From positions 1-64,000 of IMG/VR virus record IMGVR_UViG_3300043960_000133: DNA of 64,000 nt; one strand, 5' to 3'. This document shows, in pieces, positions 2,672-22,348 of this stretch. This DNA is from a virus (Duplodnaviria; Caudoviricetes). The first letter of the stretch is position 1; each line of letters begins with the position of its first letter. A model generated the notes under the pieces. That model worked only from the letters and a program-made list of their open reading frames with translations, was not told the DNA's origin and did not search any database. The position numbers and the translations under genes were made by a program.

Positions 2672-3334
2672 ATGAAGTTTTTGATTCCGGAAGATGAATT
2701 TGGCGTGTTTGCTGATCAGAGAGGTGTACCAAGGGTCGACAGCCTGTTTGTTGCAGCGACTTTTGAAAAACAGCATTATAACGTTCTGCGTGATATCGGA
2801 CGAATCACTGCATCCAATTCTGGATTAAGCCCAGAATTCATTGCACTCAATTTTGAGGGCAATACATATCGTGATGCCAGGGGAAGAAAACTGCCACGTT
2901 ACCTACTGACCCGCGATGGGTTCACCATGCTGGTCATGGGCTACACAGGCTCGAAGGCGATGCATTTCAAGGAACTCTATATCCATCGCTTCAATGAGAT
3001 GGAGCAGTGCATCCGGTCGCTCCTGTCTGCCCGGCAGGAATTCCCGATGCTGACGGACATGATCTGCCGCCTGCATGAAAGTCCGAAGCCGTACCACTTC
3101 AGCAATGAATGTGACATGTTGAACCGCATCGTGCTGGGGATGTCTGCCAAGCAGTTCCGGCTGGCCAACGGCATCGAAAAAGGGCAGAGCATCCGGCCTT
3201 ATCTGACTGCACAGCAGATCCATGCTCTGGATCGGCTGCAGCACCTGGATTACGGCCTGCTGTATTCCTGCCCGGATTTCCAGCAGCGCAAGCAGATGCT
3301 CATGACCTATTACAAAACGGAACTGGAGGGATGA
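2672..3334 (+). CDS. rha: Rha family phage regulatory protein
   Basis: VDSLFVAATFEKQHYNVLRDI...YRDARGRKLPRYLLTRDGFTMLVMGYTGSKAMHFKELYIHRFNEME Rha signature. Confidence 0.88.
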   Translation: MKFLIPEDEFGVFADQRGVPRVDSLFVAATFEKQHYNVLRDIGRITASNSGLSPEFIALNFEGNTYRDARGRKLPRYLLTRDGFTMLVMGYTGSKAMHFKELYIHRFNEMEQCIRSLLSARQEFPMLTDMICRLHESPKPYHFSNECDMLNRIVLGMSAKQFRLANGIEKGQSIRPYLTAQQIHALDRLQHLDYGLLYSCPDFQQRKQMLMTYYKTELEG

Positions 3335-3337
3335 ATC

Positions 3338-3559
3338 ATGTTTTACGTAAAAGAACCACTTAAAGATGGTGTCGATGTGACGGTCGAAATCAATGACGAA
3401 AACGTTTTCTGCCGCTGCCCGGTCTGTGGCAGGGAAGTACCTGTCAATCTGAAGAATGTCCTGTCAGACAGTGACGCTGACCTGGTGGGAACGGCAGTAT
3501 TGTGCGATGAATGTGCGGAAGGGTGGATGGAACTGCATGGAAAACAATCCGAAACGTAA
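3338..3559 (+). CDS. Hypothetical phage protein with CxxC...CxxC
   Basis: SD GGAGG; CPVCG and CDEC motifs. Confidence 0.6.
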   Translation: MFYVKEPLKDGVDVTVEINDENVFCRCPVCGREVPVNLKNVLSDSDADLVGTAVLCDECAEGWMELHGKQSET

Positions 3560-3935
3560 TGCAGAGTATTATCCGGACCCGACAGCGTATCAGGCAATCA
3601 GGAACGTGGAACCCCAAAGGTTCCCGTTCATGCCTGTTGTGTACGTGTGTTCGCCCTATACCGGGGATGTAGAAGAAAATATCCGGAAAGCCTGTGCCTA
3701 CTGCCGCTATACGGTAGACCAGGGATGTATCCCTCTGGCACCGCATCTGTATCTACCGCAGTTCCTCGATGAAGAATCGGAACGGGAACTGGCACTCTTT
3801 ATGGATATCGCACTATTGTCCCGCTGCGTCGAACTCTGGGTCTTTGGCGATGTGATTTCGGCGGGAATGGAAAAAGAAATCCAGTACGCCCAAAGAAAAG
3901 GAAAAACAATTCGGTATATTAACGAGGTGAAATAA
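3537..3935 (+). CDS. DUF4406 / nucleoside deoxyribosyltransferase-like phage protein
   Basis: VYVCSPYTGDVEENIRKA...PLAPHLYLPQF...LSRCVELWVFG...SAGMEKEIQYA. Confidence 0.6.
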   Translation: MENNPKRNAEYYPDPTAYQAIRNVEPQRFPFMPVVYVCSPYTGDVEENIRKACAYCRYTVDQGCIPLAPHLYLPQFLDEESERELALFMDIALLSRCVELWVFGDVISAGMEKEIQYAQRKGKTIRYINEVK

Positions 3936-19141: not shown

Positions 19142-19685
19142 GTTACCGGTGGTAAAAATCAAGGTTTTCCAGGGCGGGCACATGCCGGAGAAGAAAACCA
19201 AAGGCGCGGCGGCTTATGACTGCTACGCACGGATTGATGGGACGGGGGAGGACCAGTATTACGATGCTGACCGCAAGCTGCATTACATCCCTGGCATTAA
19301 CGGCATCACGACTAAAACGCCGTTGGGGTTTGCCCTGGAAATGCCGGAGGGAGTCCACGCGTTTATCCTTGCCAGGTCCAGCATGGGAGTAAAAACAATG
19401 CTGGTTTGTCCCATCGGTATGGGTTTGATTGACAGCGATTATCGCGGCGAGGTTTGTATGCTTTATCGTGAGATAGACCCGGACTACGACGTCCCAAGTT
19501 GGAAGCAGGAGGACGCAATCTATCACGGCGACCGTATCGCGCAGCTGCTGTTTAATGTGTCGGTGGAATTGCAGCAGGTGGACGAACTGACGCCGACCGA
19601 ACGGGGCAACGGAGGCTTCGGGAGCACCGGCCGAACGGATTTCCCGGAAACGGCAGCGGAACAGGTTCCGGAATGGGAGGAATAG
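19119..19685 (+). CDS. dut: Trimeric dUTPase
   Basis: AAAYD, ARSS, GLIDSDYRGE, GDRIAQ, RGNGGFGSTG motifs. Confidence 0.93.
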   Translation: MKMRKTTKLPVVKIKVFQGGHMPEKKTKGAAAYDCYARIDGTGEDQYYDADRKLHYIPGINGITTKTPLGFALEMPEGVHAFILARSSMGVKTMLVCPIGMGLIDSDYRGEVCMLYREIDPDYDVPSWKQEDAIYHGDRIAQLLFNVSVELQQVDELTPTERGNGGFGSTGRTDFPETAAEQVPEWEE

Positions 19686-19688
19686 ACA

Positions 19689-19868
19689 ATGGATATTATC
19701 TATAAAGCGTTGGTAATTTTTGCCACAATCGACCTGGCCATTTTTGCCGTAGAGGAAGGCCGGAGAATTTACCGGCGGTATCAGGCCAAGAAAGACCTGG
19801 AAGCGTTTGCAGAGTGGGCAAAGAAGCGCCTGGAAGAACGGCAGGAGGACAAGAAGGAAGAAGGCTAA
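19689..19868 (+). CDS. 59-aa membrane-anchored hypothetical protein (not in track)
   Basis: SD GGGAGG; MDIIYKALVIFATIDLAIFAVEEG... Confidence 0.45.
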   Translation: MDIIYKALVIFATIDLAIFAVEEGRRIYRRYQAKKDLEAFAEWAKKRLEERQEDKKEEG

Positions 19869-19871
19869 CAG

Positions 19872-22106
19872 ATGGAACTACGGCTGTATCAAAGGGACCT
19901 GGTAAACAACATCCGGACGGCAATCAACCGCGGCAATCAACGCGTGTGCGCCGTCCTGGGATGTGGCGGCGGTAAATCCGTTATCATTGCCACCATTGCC
20001 AAAGCGTCCACGGACAACGGGGCGCGGGTACTGTTTTTGGTCCATCGGCGGGAGCTGGTGGAACAGATCAAACGGACCATGCACCGGCAAGGCGTGGACC
20101 CTGACCTGTGCAGCGTGATGATGGTGCAGACGGCCAGCCGACGTTTACGCAGCCTGGCGCCGCCCGTGCTGATTATTGTGGACGAATGCTTTGTTGCTGG
20201 CACCCTGGTTGACGGCGTGCCGATTGAAAACATCAGACCGGGCGACTGCGTAAGGTCGTTCGATGAAAAAACAAGAAGGATAAAGCCCAAGAGAGTAACG
20301 AAGGTGTTCAAGAACCCAATAGGGAACGCCCTGGTTCGTTTAATTATCAATGGAAAAAAGACGGTTTGTACACCGAATCACCCGTTTTTCGTGGTTCCTG
20401 GAATATGGAAAGAAGCGGGAGCACTAAAGAAAGGGGATTGCGTATATGTATGTATGCCCAAAATGCGGGGGACCCATGAAAAGTTCGCCGGAGAAAGCCC
20501 GTCGGTGCATTCGCTGCTACAGAAAAGAAATGGCAGAGCGAAACCGGAAGACGGCTTCAGAAAGGATGAAACTTCACAACCCAATGAAGAATCTGGCAGC
20601 AAAAGAGAAGATGCAGAAAACATTAAAGCGGATAGGCCACAAACCCTGTATACACGGCGGAAATGGAACCGGGGATACCATTCCACAGAAACTACTGGGC
20701 AAAGCTTTGGGATGGCCAACGGAGGTGGTCGTTGTAACAAAAATGCGCAATCTGGGGTATCCGCCCTGTTACAAGGTAGACATAGCCAACAGGGAACAAA
20801 AGATCGCAATCGAAGTGGACGGAGGTTCTCATGGGGCGCTGCGGGTGAAGACGGCGGACGCAAAGAAAACCAATTATTTGAAATCGCACGGGTGGAAAGT
20901 GCTGAGATTTACAAACGATCAAGTCTTGAAAGATTTAAAAAGGTGTGTGGAAACGGTTATGTCTACAATCTAGAAGTGGAGGGCAACCACACTTATTTCG
21001 CTAATGGGGTTGCGGTGCATAATTGCCACCACATTCTGTCCAGGACCTACCAGAAAATCATTGAGTATTTTCCCAAAGCCCTGGTAGTGGGATTTACGGC
21101 AACACCCCAACGGATGGGAGAGGGCGGCCTGGGCAAGGTATTCCAACAGCTCATAACGTCGGTATCTACAAAATGGCTGATTGAAAACCATTACCTGGCA
21201 CCCTATCATCTGTATTCCGCGCCGCTAGCAGACCCCAAAGGGCTGCACACCCGCAACGGGGATTACGCCCCGGAAGAAGTGGCGGAACTGATGGAAAAAG
21301 GCGCGATTTTTGGTGATACCGTAAAAAACTGGAAGCATTACGCGGACGGTAAAAAAACCATCGTATACTGCGCCAGTATTAAATCCAGCAAGGGGACGGC
21401 GGCCGCTTTCCAAGCCGCCGGAATCCCCGCGGAACACCTGGACGGACAGACGCCCACGGCGTTGCGGCAAAAGATCGTTGAGGATTTCCGGGCCGGGCAC
21501 GTCCTGGTGCTGTGCAACGTGGACCTGTTCGGGGAGGGTTTTGATGTGCCGGATTGCGAGGCCGTGTGTCTACTGCGACCTACAAAATCCCTGACGCTGT
21601 ACATCCAGCAGGCCATGCGGCCCATGAGGACGGACCCTGGCAACCCTGGCAAGGAGGCAATCATCCTGGACCATGTGGGGAATTACACCAGGCACGGGTT
21701 TCCGGATGATGACCGGGAATGGAGTTTAAAGCCTAAAAAACGGAAGAAGCAAGCAGAAACCAGCGTTACGCAGTGCCCGGTATGTTTCCATGTTTTTAAA
21801 CCGGCACCCACGTGCCCGTATTGCGGCTACGAATTTAAAGCCGCAAAGGACAGCGGCGGCGTGGACAAAGAGCGAGGGCAGGAAACGGTGGACGGCCTGA
21901 CATTGGAAGAAATCAAAGAATCTCCGTATGGAGACTACAAGCGATGCAAGACGTTTGCTGAGCTGGAAATTTTTCGCAAGGCCAAAGGGTACAAGTTCGG
22001 CTGGAGCTTGCACAAGGCCGCGGAAATGGGGCTAGAGTTGCCCCCGAAATATCGGGGTGTGGCCAGGAAATTTAGCGAAGGATGGTTTAGAAGGAGGAAA
22101 GCATGA
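19872..22106 (+). CDS. SF2 DExH helicase precursor containing an intein (about 465 aa after splicing)
   Basis: LRLYQ Q-motif, CGGGKS Walker A, spliced Walker B IIVDE/CHH, FTATP, GFDVPD, QQAMRPMR, C-terminal CPVC/CPYC. Confidence 0.92.
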   Translation: MELRLYQRDLVNNIRTAINRGNQRVCAVLGCGGGKSVIIATIAKASTDNGARVLFLVHRRELVEQIKRTMHRQGVDPDLCSVMMVQTASRRLRSLAPPVLIIVDECFVAGTLVDGVPIENIRPGDCVRSFDEKTRRIKPKRVTKVFKNPIGNALVRLIINGKKTVCTPNHPFFVVPGIWKEAGALKKGDCVYVCMPKMRGTHEKFAGESPSVHSLLQKRNGRAKPEDGFRKDETSQPNEESGSKREDAENIKADRPQTLYTRRKWNRGYHSTETTGQSFGMANGGGRCNKNAQSGVSALLQGRHSQQGTKDRNRSGRRFSWGAAGEDGGRKENQLFEIARVESAEIYKRSSLERFKKVCGNGYVYNLEVEGNHTYFANGVAVHNCHHILSRTYQKIIEYFPKALVVGFTATPQRMGEGGLGKVFQQLITSVSTKWLIENHYLAPYHLYSAPLADPKGLHTRNGDYAPEEVAELMEKGAIFGDTVKNWKHYADGKKTIVYCASIKSSKGTAAAFQAAGIPAEHLDGQTPTALRQKIVEDFRAGHVLVLCNVDLFGEGFDVPDCEAVCLLRPTKSLTLYIQQAMRPMRTDPGNPGKEAIILDHVGNYTRHGFPDDDREWSLKPKKRKKQAETSVTQCPVCFHVFKPAPTCPYCGYEFKAAKDSGGVDKERGQETVDGLTLEEIKESPYGDYKRCKTFAELEIFRKAKGYKFGWSLHKAAEMGLELPPKYRGVARKFSEGWFRRRKA
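20187..21023 (+). mobile_element. Intein (279 aa) in helicase Walker B
   Basis: Starts CFVAGT (block A), TPNHPF (block B), VYNLEVEGNHTYFANGVAVHN (blocks F/G), +1 extein residue Cys. Confidence 0.95.
20446..20973 (+). CDS. Zn-ribbon + DUF559/Vsr-like endonuclease encoded in +1 frame inside the intein
   Basis: CPKC...CIRC; YKVDIA...IAIEVDGGSH...DAKKTNYLKSHGWKVLRFTN; SD AAGGGG 20431-20436. Confidence 0.85.
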   Translation: MYVCPKCGGPMKSSPEKARRCIRCYRKEMAERNRKTASERMKLHNPMKNLAAKEKMQKTLKRIGHKPCIHGGNGTGDTIPQKLLGKALGWPTEVVVVTKMRNLGYPPCYKVDIANREQKIAIEVDGGSHGALRVKTADAKKTNYLKSHGWKVLRFTNDQVLKDLKRCVETVMSTI

Positions 22107-22348
22107 CACTACATGAACTTTACGACGTTTTGGGCGACGGCTTAATCACCCTTGATCAGCGTGTTCCCAATGAGGGAGATTATACGATTCATAGCGGGTA
22201 CGTTGCCGATTTCCCGTATCACTTGATGCGTGACTACGGAGATTGTGACGTTTTAACGGTTGCGGGCTGTGGAATTTGTTCACCAGGCAGCGCTACACTT
22301 CAGCATGGTATCCGTATCGTAATCAGCTGGGATGAGGAGGACGACTAA
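22103..22348 (+). CDS. Hypothetical protein
   Basis: ATGA overlap with helicase; SD AAGGAGG. Confidence 0.55.
   Translation: MTLHELYDVLGDGLITLDQRVPNEGDYTIHSGYVADFPYHLMRDYGDCDVLTVAGCGICSPGSATLQHGIRIVISWDEEDD

What the first reader, a model, noticed from the sequence alone, without database searches (positions are those of the whole stretch)
20187..21023. Intein whose homing endonuclease is a separate gene overprinted in the +1 frame
Seen: the helicase ORF is open for 744 codons and contains a canonical intein (C1 CFVAGT; TPNHPF; YNLEV...VHN/C) splitting Walker B (DE/CH). Between blocks B and F the intein frame reads as R/G/S/K-rich low-complexity text. The +1 frame (20446-20973) over the same bases encodes a coherent 175-aa protein: CxxC-CxxC ribbon, basic NUMOD-like segment, DUF559/Vsr-like catalytic motifs (IEVDGGSH, GWKVLRF). 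Its SD AAGGGG is supplied by the intein's conserved LKKGD codons. Its ATG is the first of a TATG triplet giving starts in all three frames. Its TAG lies inside the YNLEV codons. So ~176 codons are dual-coding and the endonuclease exactly fills the usual endonuclease slot. Established: inteins normally carry the endonuclease in-frame. From memory, out-of-frame endonucleases have been noted in some actinophage inteins; I cannot verify this here, so novelty may be limited to this host group, target and nuclease family. Inference: a free-standing endonuclease gene invaded a mini-intein and the pair now homes together, with nuclease expression uncoupled from splicing.
Basis: partly seen in the sequence, partly recalled or inferred. 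Interest (0 to 1): 0.9.

Follow-up and report, generated by a model that had tools for sequence, protein, structure and literature searches.

The report
Helicase intein with overprinted +1 endonuclease
A prophage helicase gene carries a self-splicing intein whose middle also encodes, one base out of step, a complete DNA-cutting "homing" enzyme; the double coding is real, kept by selection and widespread, but this kind of layout was already described in 2025-2026 preprints.

Summary
The helicase ORF (19872-22106, 744 aa) holds a 279-aa class-1 intein (20187-21023) at the Walker B box. The +1 frame (20446-20973) encodes a 175-aa DUF559/EDxHD (Vsr-like) endonuclease.

It is not an artefact or a relic:
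- In 40 loci (37-94% identity; cultured Vibrio, Pseudomonas and Corynebacterium phages, and MAG contigs of over 10 phyla) the nuclease is always +1 to the intein frame.
- The intein frame has 0 stops where 5-19 are expected. Free-standing and in-frame relatives have 13-26.
- Substitutions and residue conservation follow the +1 frame.
- The +1 protein folds confidently (pLDDT 90; best match I-Bth0305I). The intein-frame product is a mini-intein fold with a 137-residue disordered linker.
- A 465-aa intein-less allele (97% identical, DEAH at the site) exists.

The same nuclease family also occurs as a split-intein "fractured gene", free-standing beside helicases, and fused in frame.

Translation, splicing and cleavage are inferred, not shown.

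Out-of-frame intein endonucleases were reported in two Gogarten-lab preprints (other nucleases, frames and hosts). Earlier rounds of this scan noted such inteins repeatedly on other DNA. This is a new member of a known kind, of moderate interest.

The parts
19872..22106 (+). Helicase precursor ORF (744 codons plus stop): SF2 DEAD/DEAH-type phage helicase interrupted by the intein
   Evidence: ORF. (ResIII, Helicase_C, Intein_splicing). (phrog_16 DNA helicase, E 3e-98).
19872..20186 (+). N-extein (105 aa), ending ...IIVDE (Walker B)
   Evidence: The alignment to the 465-aa intein-less allele P0106 is 96% identical here.
20187..21023 (+). Class-1 intein, 279 aa (C1 ... HN)
   Evidence: PF14890, E 3e-16. 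Invariant C1, H65, H278 and N279 in 27 relatives. Precisely absent from P0106/L100.
20187..20459 (+). N-terminal half of the HINT splicing fold (intein residues 1-91; blocks A and B)
   Evidence: AlphaFold2 pLDDT 91-97. Foldseek matches to mini-inteins, TM up to 0.83. Substitutions against L003 fall on frame-0 third positions.
20460..20870 (+). Intein-frame linker (residues 92-228). It is predicted disordered and is constrained only to avoid stop codons
   Evidence: pLDDT about 40 with no secondary structure. Residue identity equals that of the stop-filled third frame, 0.21 against 0.21. No T-ending codon at any of 53 risky sites.
20871..21023 (+). C-terminal half of the HINT fold (residues 229-279; blocks F and G, ending VHN)
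   Evidence: pLDDT 81-95. Conserved VYNLEV...YFANG..VHN.
20431..20437 (+). Shine-Dalgarno-like AAGGGGA, 8 nt before the endonuclease ATG, made by the K-G-D codons at the end of the N-terminal splicing half
   Evidence: The closest relative L003 has AGGAG at the same place. Most relatives have GAGG or GGAGG 6-10 nt before an ATG.
20446..20973 (+). Endonuclease gene in the +1 frame (175 codons plus TAG): DUF559/EDxHD, Vsr-like
   Evidence: PF04480, E 5.8e-14. (profile against 3HRL 3e-12 and 3R3P 5e-4). (pLDDT 90.2). (best fold match 3R3P). Purifying selection in this frame.
20455..20517 (+). N-terminal CxxC...CxxC zinc-ribbon-like module of the endonuclease (residues 4-24)
   Evidence: C4 and C7 are kept in 90% or more of 58 homologues. 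The model shows short beta hairpins.
20710..20970 (+). Catalytic domain of the endonuclease (about residues 89-175), with E93, D112, E123, D125, H129 and D138
   Evidence: D112, E123, D125, H129 and D138 are invariant in 58 homologues and E93 is nearly so. They align to the active-site residues named for I-Bth0305I and Vsr.
21024..22106 (+). C-extein (360 aa plus stop), beginning with the +1 Cys codon TGC (21024-21026); the spliced product would read DECH
   Evidence: 97% identical to P0106, which has GCC (Ala, DEAH) at this codon.
20178..20186 (.). Left half of the presumed homing site. The right half is 21024-21035. The two halves are contiguous in intein-less alleles
   Evidence: L100 reads GTAGACGAA|GCCCATCAT at the empty site. 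Contigs of run X7 join 20186 to 21025.

Best explanation
This is a mobile intein of a prophage SF2 helicase. Its splicing function and its homing function are encoded in two reading frames of the same DNA.

Frame 0 is translated as part of the helicase precursor. The two halves of a mini-intein (HINT) fold are joined by a disordered tether of about 137 residues, and they excise the intein. The result would be a 465-aa helicase with DECH in place of DEAH.

The +1 frame is a complete gene for a 175-aa EDxHD/DUF559 (Vsr-like) endonuclease, with a zinc ribbon, a helical DNA-binding part and a catalytic domain. I infer that it is translated on its own from the helicase mRNA, using a Shine-Dalgarno-like site and an ATG just after the N-terminal splicing half. 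I infer that it cuts intein-less helicase alleles near the Walker B codons, so that repair copies in the whole intein together with the +1 Cys codon.

Shown here: the anatomy; selection on each frame; conservation of the layout in 40 loci; the predicted folds; the existence of empty alleles.

Inferred: independent translation, splicing, cleavage and homing.
For: 1. Anatomy and family matches.
2. Relative frame: the nuclease is always +1 to the intein frame in the window plus 17 loci and in 22 of 25 genome-contig loci.
3. Stop avoidance: the intein frame has 0 stops over 171-264 codons, and the third frame has 8-24. Synonymous resampling expects 5-19 (P 4e-3 to 4e-12 per locus). No codon ends in T at 39-73 risky sites per locus. 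Controls have 13-26 stops in that frame: in-frame L011, free-standing L016, L032 and L034, and split L031.
4. Residue identity: 0.40 in the nuclease frame, 0.21 in the intein frame and 0.21 in the third frame, over 131 pairs. The nuclease frame is higher in every pair. The same holds along the gene up to about residue 160.
5. Substitutions in three close pairs: 18/31, 34/40 and 34/52 fall on nuclease-frame third positions. 21, 34 and 33 are synonymous there, against 5, 5 and 9 in the intein frame. In the exteins and the HINT halves the periodicity is that of frame 0.
6. Folds: the nuclease model has pLDDT 90.2 and its top match is I-Bth0305I (3R3P, TM 0.64-0.67). The intein-frame model has pLDDT above 90 for residues 1-91, 81-95 for 229-279 and about 40 in between. 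It matches mini-inteins with TM up to 0.83.
7. Catalytic residues are invariant in 58 homologues.
8. An ATG with an SD-like site lies just before the first CxxC in most loci.
9. Empty allele: P0106 is 465 aa, 97% identical, with DEAH at the site.
10. Mobility: the intein is 3.5-6% diverged where the exteins are 12-13% diverged against L003. Only 4 of the 120 nearest helicase clusters carry an intein.
11. Not an assembly error: an independent assembly (run X2) is identical with no gaps, and a 92% variant (run X3) also has no gaps.
Against: - No direct evidence of translation of the +1 ORF, of splicing or of cleavage.
- The window's SD-like site (AAGGGGA) is weak. A few relatives have only a GTG or TTG start, or no clear SD.
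- Foldseek E-values for the nuclease are modest (2.8e-3), although 3R3P ranks first.
- Lower divergence of the intein could partly reflect double coding rather than recent transfer. The non-overlapped N-terminal half is also only 3.5% diverged.
- Host assignments of MAG contigs may be binning errors.
Confidence: 0.85

Rival explanations
1. The +1 ORF is a decaying remnant of a once in-frame endonuclease that was frameshifted. The element is now effectively an immobile mini-intein with a junk linker.
For: An in-frame fusion of the same nuclease family exists in a UvrD-like helicase intein (L011). The intein-frame linker is unconstrained.
Against: - The +1 ORF is complete, with a start codon, in 40 loci.
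- Catalytic residues are invariant.
- Substitutions are mostly synonymous in the +1 frame in three independent close pairs.
- A relic would gather stops in its own frame, and none is seen.
Confidence: 0.04
2. The two-frame appearance is a sequencing or assembly artefact: two compensating indels in a normal in-frame endonuclease intein.
For: The window comes from a metagenome-derived provirus record.
Against: - An independent run and study (X2) gives identical sequence with 0 gaps, and a 92% variant (X3) has 0 gaps.
- The same +1 relation holds in cultured, finished phage genomes (CP-T1, MR14, phi673, Vibrio phages) and in 22 genome contigs.
Confidence: 0.01
3. The nuclease is not initiated independently. 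It is made by programmed +1 ribosomal frameshifting from the intein frame, as a fusion to the N-extein and the N-terminal intein half.
For: The two frames overlap on one mRNA. No internal promoter is seen above chance.
Against: - A stop in the +1 frame lies only 1-10 codons upstream of the ATG in many loci (6 in the window), which leaves almost no room for a shift site.
- An ATG with an SD-like site is kept at that place.
- Free-standing and split-intein relatives have the same N-terminus.
Confidence: 0.03
4. The +1 protein is functional but no longer serves homing. It might be a nuclease used in phage-phage competition or DNA metabolism that merely resides in the intein.
For: Free-standing relatives occur next to intact helicase genes with no intein (L016, L032, L034). 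DUF559 proteins have varied roles.
Against: - The nuclease and the intein stay linked across at least five different Walker-B ATPase host genes. This fits a unit that moves together.
- The intein is patchily distributed, and empty alleles exist.
- The closest solved relative is a proven homing endonuclease.
Confidence: 0.06

Closest known systems
Non-canonical actinobacteriophage inteins with the endonuclease in another frame or on the other strand (Gosselin, Arsenault & Gogarten, bioRxiv 10.1101/2025.01.02.630785)
   Same: - The endonuclease ORF lies between the splicing blocks but outside the intein frame.
- The intein-frame stretch has no recognisable structure.
- The proposed origin is a free-standing endonuclease entering an intein.
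- Such ORFs are missed by annotation pipelines.
   Different: That paper reports an endonuclease VII-like gene in frame 3, and antisense LAGLIDADG and antisense Vsr-like genes. The hosts are polymerase, minor capsid, terminase and thymidylate synthase of actinophages. Here the gene is a same-strand +1 EDxHD/DUF559 gene in Walker-B sites of helicases and related ATPases, in phages of many phyla.
Cyanobacterial dnaX intein with an out-of-frame LAGLIDADG endonuclease (Phillips, DeSimone & Gogarten, bioRxiv 10.64898/2026.09.14.751524)
   Same: - Overlapping frames, a disordered intein-frame region and frame-dependent selection.
- Full and empty alleles coexist.
- The insertion is in a Walker-B ATPase. 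Two relatives here (L029, L040) sit in DnaX-like clamp loaders.
   Different: There the endonuclease is a LAGLIDADG in the +2 frame, in a cellular gene of one phylum. Here it is a Vsr-like nuclease in the +1 frame, mainly in phage helicases.
Fractured genes: split inteins flanking a free-standing Vsr-like endonuclease gene (Dassa et al. 2009, PMC2677866)
   Same: The nuclease family is the same, it occupies the same slot between the intein halves, and the setting is phage DNA-metabolism genes. One relative found here (L031) has exactly this split layout.
   Different: In fractured genes the intein is broken into two ORFs and the overlap is only 6-69 bp. In the window the intein frame reads through the whole 528-nt nuclease gene, so splicing would be in cis.
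I-Bth0305I, prototype of the EDxHD homing endonucleases (Taylor et al. 2011, PMC3239194; PDB 3R3P)
   Same: It is the best structural match of the +1 protein. The catalytic residues correspond: D112/D196, H129/H213, D138/D222 and E123. Both have a two-part build with an N-terminal DNA-binding region.
   Different: I-Bth0305I sits in a group I intron of recA, in a loop of the RNA and not overlapping a protein frame. Its N-terminal region has NUMOD repeats, and no Pfam NUMOD model matched here.

Membership tests
Class 1 intein (HINT fold, Pfam PF14890) | N-terminal Cys/Ser nucleophile (block A) and the TxxH motif of block B | tested here: met
   C1 (CFVAGT) and TPNH are present. C1 and H65 are invariant in 27 relatives.
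Class 1 intein (HINT fold, Pfam PF14890) | C-terminal His-Asn followed by Cys/Ser/Thr at +1 (block G) | tested here: met
   VHN|C is present. H278 and N279 are invariant. The +1 residue is C in most relatives and S in some.
Class 1 intein (HINT fold, Pfam PF14890) | HINT splicing fold | tested here: met
   The AlphaFold2 halves have pLDDT 81-97. Foldseek matches Mtu RecA, Npu/Ssp DnaB and gp41-1 mini-inteins with TM 0.77-0.83 and probability 1.00.
Class 1 intein (HINT fold, Pfam PF14890) | Protein splicing activity | not testable with these tools
   Indirect evidence only. The host gene is a replication helicase kept open through the intein, and an allele lacking exactly these 279 codons exists.
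EDxHD / DUF559 (Vsr-like) homing endonucleases | Vsr-like nuclease fold | tested here: met
   Pfam DUF559, E 5.8e-14. Profile against 3HRL 3e-12 and 3R3P 5e-4. The Foldseek top hit is 3R3P (TM 0.64-0.67), and 1VSR is also listed.
EDxHD / DUF559 (Vsr-like) homing endonucleases | Composite catalytic motif (Glu, Asp, His, Asp) | tested here: met
   D112, E123, D125, H129 and D138 are invariant and E93 is nearly so in 58 homologues. Correspondence to I-Bth0305I comes from the HMM alignment and the residues named in PMC3239194.
EDxHD / DUF559 (Vsr-like) homing endonucleases | N-terminal NUMOD-type DNA-binding module | tested here: inconclusive
   No Pfam NUMOD hit at E <= 0.1. A conserved zinc ribbon and an NRKYAS..RMK..NPM helical segment are present. 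From memory, the NPM segment recalls NUMOD3.
EDxHD / DUF559 (Vsr-like) homing endonucleases | Site-specific cleavage of the empty allele | not testable with these tools
   The empty allele and its site are identified.
Inteins with an out-of-frame (overprinted) homing endonuclease gene | Endonuclease ORF in the endonuclease slot but in another frame, with the intein frame free of stops | tested here: met
   The +1 relation and 0 stops hold in 40 loci. Chance expectation is 5-19 stops.
Inteins with an out-of-frame (overprinted) homing endonuclease gene | Purifying selection on the endonuclease frame, with the intein-frame stretch unconstrained or disordered | tested here: met
Fractured genes (split intein plus free-standing endonuclease) | Intein halves in two separate ORFs | tested here: not met
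   The window's intein frame is continuous. The relative L031 does meet this feature.

The most novel reading that the evidence does not exclude
The +1 overprinted layout may be the long-lived core state of one old, phylum-spanning family of Walker-B-targeting inteins, rather than a rare accident. On this reading the other known layouts arise from it repeatedly: in-frame endonuclease inteins, split-intein 'fractured genes' and free-standing helicase-adjacent endonuclease genes. Overprinting would then be a main route by which inteins gain endonucleases and by which split inteins are born. The module would hop between ATPase families (DEAH helicase, SNF2, DnaX clamp loader, UvrD) through the shared DE-x-H site.
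Probability: 0.3. Interest if true: 0.6.

Novelty: new member of a known kind. Interest (0 to 1): 0.42.

Why it matters
It adds a large, easily tested family to the few reported inteins whose endonuclease is a separate overlapping gene. Cultured phages of Corynebacterium glutamicum, Pseudomonas and Vibrio belong to this family.

One nuclease family shows all four layouts: overprinted, split, free-standing and in-frame. This gives material for asking how inteins acquire endonucleases and how split inteins arise.

There is also a practical point. Annotation of finished phage genomes misses the nuclease gene. CP-T1, MR14, phi673 and many Vibrio phages list only one long helicase CDS. Such inteins can be misread as decaying or mini-inteins.

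The unconstrained disordered linker is a clean natural case of a frame selected only to avoid stop codons.

Tried and rejected
- Expression: no RNA holder was listed among public runs. Run X3 is labelled RNA-Seq but is probably DNA. There is therefore no expression evidence either way.
- Regulation: the promoter and terminator scan of 19600-22300 found nothing above shuffles. Folding of the RBS region gave no special hairpin, z -0.7.
- Nucleotide search: blastn against phages found only short pieces of 4-8% of the gene. Protein-level searches were needed.
The nearest named intein-less helicases are from Acidaminococcus, Phascolarctobacterium and Megasphaera at 59-65% identity, which is only a weak hint.
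- Stop-avoidance test: the first Monte-Carlo version timed out and was replaced by an analytic calculation.
- Origin: the HEN tree has an unresolved backbone (17 of 32 forks open) and only a midpoint root. It does not settle whether free-standing, overprinted or in-frame came first. L032, L034 and L043 were left out of the tree by my motif filter.
- Pfam NUMOD models were not matched.
- The triple TATG (starts in three frames) is shared only with L003 and is judged incidental.
- The automatic start-codon script stopped at L026 and mis-picked L021. Its counts are therefore approximate: 21 loci listed, 19 with ATG, 15 with an SD-like site 4-12 nt upstream.
Full report
**What is there.** The window belongs to an IMG/VR provirus record of 89,204 bases. 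On the + strand, 19872-22106 is one open frame of 744 codons. Its ends match phage SF2 helicases: ResIII and Helicase_C, and phrog_16 at E 3e-98. Its middle matches the intein splicing domain, PF14890 at E 3e-16, as a split match over intein residues 12-279.

- The intein runs from TGC at 20187 to AAT at 21021-21023, 279 codons.
- It carries CFVAGT, TPNHPF and YNLEV...VHN, followed by Cys.
- The +1 frame holds an ORF at 20446-20973 (175 codons, TAG). It matches DUF559 at E 5.8e-14.

Only 'NUMOD-like' found no support in Pfam.

**Is the double coding real? The layout recurs.**

- tblastn with the +1 protein finds it inside the helicase genes of cultured phages: Vibrio CP-T1, K391, the 159E and 1.xxx series, Pseudomonas MR14 and Corynebacterium phi673. 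In every record only one long helicase CDS is annotated.
- IMG/VR gave nine more loci. Assembled contigs gave four. Species-representative genomes gave 25 full-length relatives.
- In the window plus 17 loci of the first sets, and in 22 of the 25 genome contigs, the nuclease frame is exactly +1 to the intein and extein frame. The intein frame is open for 693-1955 codons in the genome contigs and 736-994 in the phage loci.
- Nuclease identity to the window ranges from 94% down to 37%.
- By their record titles the contigs come from Bacillota, Bacteroidota, Chloroflexota, Actinomycetota, Acidobacteriota, Verrucomicrobiota, Myxococcota, Planctomycetota, Elusimicrobia, a CPR lineage and one Thermococci MAG. 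MAG binning of phage DNA can mislead, so host labels are tentative.

**Is the double coding real? Selection differs by frame.**

- A stop arises in the intein frame whenever a nuclease codon ending in T precedes one starting with AA, AG or GA.
- Each locus has 39-73 such sites, and none is preceded by T. At other codons T3 is 13-37%.
- Resampling synonymous codons with each locus's own extein usage predicts 5-19 stops. The chance of an open frame is 4e-3 to 4e-12 per locus, and 2e-3 for the window.
- The third frame has 8-24 stops.
- Relatives that do not need the frame have 13-26 stops there: the in-frame fusion L011, the free-standing genes L016, L032 and L034, and the split L031.
- Mean pairwise residue identity is 0.40 in the nuclease frame, 0.21 in the intein frame and 0.21 in the third frame, over 131 pairs. 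The nuclease frame is higher in all pairs.
- Along the gene this holds up to about residue 160 of the nuclease. After that the intein's block F takes over.
- In three independent close pairs the substitutions in the overlap fall on nuclease-frame third positions: 18/31, 34/40 and 34/52. They are mostly synonymous there (21, 34 and 33) and rarely so in the intein frame (5, 5 and 9).
- In the exteins and in both HINT halves the periodicity is that of frame 0.

The intein frame across the nuclease gene is therefore selected only to stay open. The nuclease frame is selected for its protein.

**Is the double coding real? Predicted structures agree.**

- With 58 homologues, the +1 protein folds at mean pLDDT 90.2. 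Its best PDB match is the catalytic domain of the homing endonuclease I-Bth0305I (3R3P, TM 0.64-0.67, probability 1.00). 3HRL and Vsr rank lower.
- A sequence profile finds 3HRL at 3e-12 and 3R3P at 5e-4.
- D112, E123, D125, H129 and D138 are invariant and E93 is nearly so. By the alignment and the residues named in PMC3239194, these correspond to D196, E206, N208, H213, D222 and E170 of I-Bth0305I.
- The intein-frame protein, modelled with 27 relatives, has pLDDT 91-97 for residues 1-91 and 81-95 for residues 229-279. Residues 92-228 sit at about 40 with no secondary structure.
- The two ordered parts together match mini-inteins: Mtu RecA at 0.82, Npu DnaB at 0.78 and gp41-1 at 0.77.

**Not an artefact.** Contigs of an independent run and study (X2) are identical to the window with no gaps. 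A 92%-identical variant (X3) also has no gaps across the intein.

**How the nuclease is probably made.** In the window a stop in the +1 frame lies six codons before the ATG, and AAGGGGA lies 8 nt before it. The 94% relative L003 has AGGAG at that place. Most other loci have GAGG or GGAGG 6-10 nt before an ATG that sits a few codons ahead of the first CxxC. The purine run is often supplied by the conserved Gly-Asp or Asp-Glu codons that end the N-terminal splicing half. A few loci have only GTG or TTG. I found no internal promoter and no RBS hairpin above chance. I therefore infer internal initiation on the helicase mRNA. This is inference, and a frameshift fusion is unlikely for the reasons given under rivals.

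**Evidence for mobility.**

- The closest helicase cluster after the window's own is P0106: 465 aa, exactly 744 minus 279, and 96-97% identical in both exteins.
- Its DNA (L100) reads GTAGACGAA|GCCCATCAT, that is DEAH, where the window has DE-intein-CHH. Gain of the intein therefore goes with an Ala-to-Cys change at +1, and the spliced enzyme would carry DECH.
- Only 4 of the 120 best helicase clusters have an intein.
- Between the window and L003 the N-terminal HINT half differs at 3.5% of sites and the overlap at 6.3%. The exteins differ at 11.7% and 13.1%, mostly at synonymous sites. This fits a more recent common origin of the intein than of its host gene.
- A landfill metagenome (X7) holds pieces of the intein, and also two contigs that join 20186 (or 20176) to 21025, with Ser at +1. 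These may come from different phages, so this is a hint of coexisting alleles only.

**The wider family.** The same intein and nuclease module sits at the Walker B site of several ATPases:

- DEAH helicases (most loci);
- SNF2-like proteins, with Ser or Cys at +1;
- a giant methylase-SNF2 protein;
- DnaX-like clamp loaders (L029, L040).

One locus (L027) has the insertion three residues later. The nuclease family also occurs in three other layouts:

- as a split-intein 'fractured gene': L031 has ResIII plus the intein N-part, then the nuclease, then the intein C-part;
- free-standing, directly upstream of intact helicase genes: L016, L032 and L034;
- fused in frame within an intein of a UvrD-like helicase: L011.

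In a nuclease tree the in-frame L011 is sister to an overprinted member (support 95/94). The backbone is unresolved and the root is arbitrary, so the order of events is open.

**Comparison with what is known.**

- Vsr-like (EDxHD) homing endonucleases were first found between split intein halves (Dassa 2009). They were characterised as I-Bth0305I (Taylor 2011).
- Inteins with the endonuclease out of frame or antisense were reported in 2025 for actinophages: endonuclease VII-like in frame 3, and antisense LAGLIDADG and antisense Vsr-like.
- In 2026 a +2 LAGLIDADG was reported for the cyanobacterial dnaX intein, with the same kind of frame-dependent selection analysis.
- I found no paper in the held library describing a same-strand +1 EDxHD gene in helicase inteins. 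The library is incomplete.
- This scan's own earlier notes list many out-of-frame intein endonucleases on other DNA, including helicase inteins.

**Verdict.** The observation and its core reading are right and the evidence is strong. The element is a new member of a kind described in two recent preprints. Its main added value is the breadth of the family, the four layouts of one nuclease family, and cultured phages in which the mechanism can be tested.

Noticed in passing
L011:1783-4284: A UvrD-like helicase with an N-terminal Top1-type zinc ribbon carries an intein at TDE|C in which the same nuclease family is fused IN frame. This copy lacks the zinc-ribbon N-terminus and has 15 stops in the frame that is kept open in the overprinted relatives.
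   Followed up: partly
L031:1759-3396: A Lutibacter MAG contig shows the Dassa-type 'fractured gene'. One ORF holds the helicase N-part plus the intein N-half, the next is the nuclease ORF, and a separate ORF holds the intein C-half. The former intein frame has 14 stops across the nuclease.
   Followed up: partly
L016:2977-5355; L032:2893-4825; L034:2854-5296: Free-standing copies of the nuclease sit directly upstream of intact, intein-less helicase genes. L016 has a second DUF559 gene at its left end. This is the arrangement expected for intron-less homing next to the target gene.
   Followed up: partly
L026:1590-4508: A helicase in an Erysipelotrichaceae MAG appears to carry two inteins. One ends VHN|SGKTE in the P-loop. 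The second is at VDE|CF in Walker B and holds the overprinted nuclease ORF (3028-3594).
   Followed up: no
L027:2472-3485: In a Myxococcales contig the intein is inserted three residues later (DEAHHA|CF...VHN|CADS) than in all other helicase members.
   Followed up: no
L029:2112-4187; L040:375-2474: The same intein and +1 nuclease module sits in DnaX-like clamp-loader genes at (E/D)E|CH(M/Q). This is the kind of site used by the published cyanobacterial dnaX intein, whose out-of-frame endonuclease is of a different family.
   Followed up: partly
window 21024-21026: The intein-bearing allele has Cys (TGC) where the 97%-identical empty allele has Ala (GCC). The spliced helicase would therefore be a DECH-box rather than a DEAH-box enzyme. 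Contigs of run X7 have Ser at this position.
   Followed up: partly
L001, L002, L012-L015 (GenBank phage records MT104474, MG324353, JQ177061, OZ196571, OZ196825, MG592463): In finished, cultured phage genomes the nested nuclease gene is not annotated. Only one long 'helicase' CDS is listed, or 'coil containing protein' in the Vibrio lentus phages.
   Followed up: yes
window 20446-20456: TATG occurs three times in a row, giving ATGs in all three frames. It is shared only with the 94% relative L003 and is probably incidental.
   Followed up: yes
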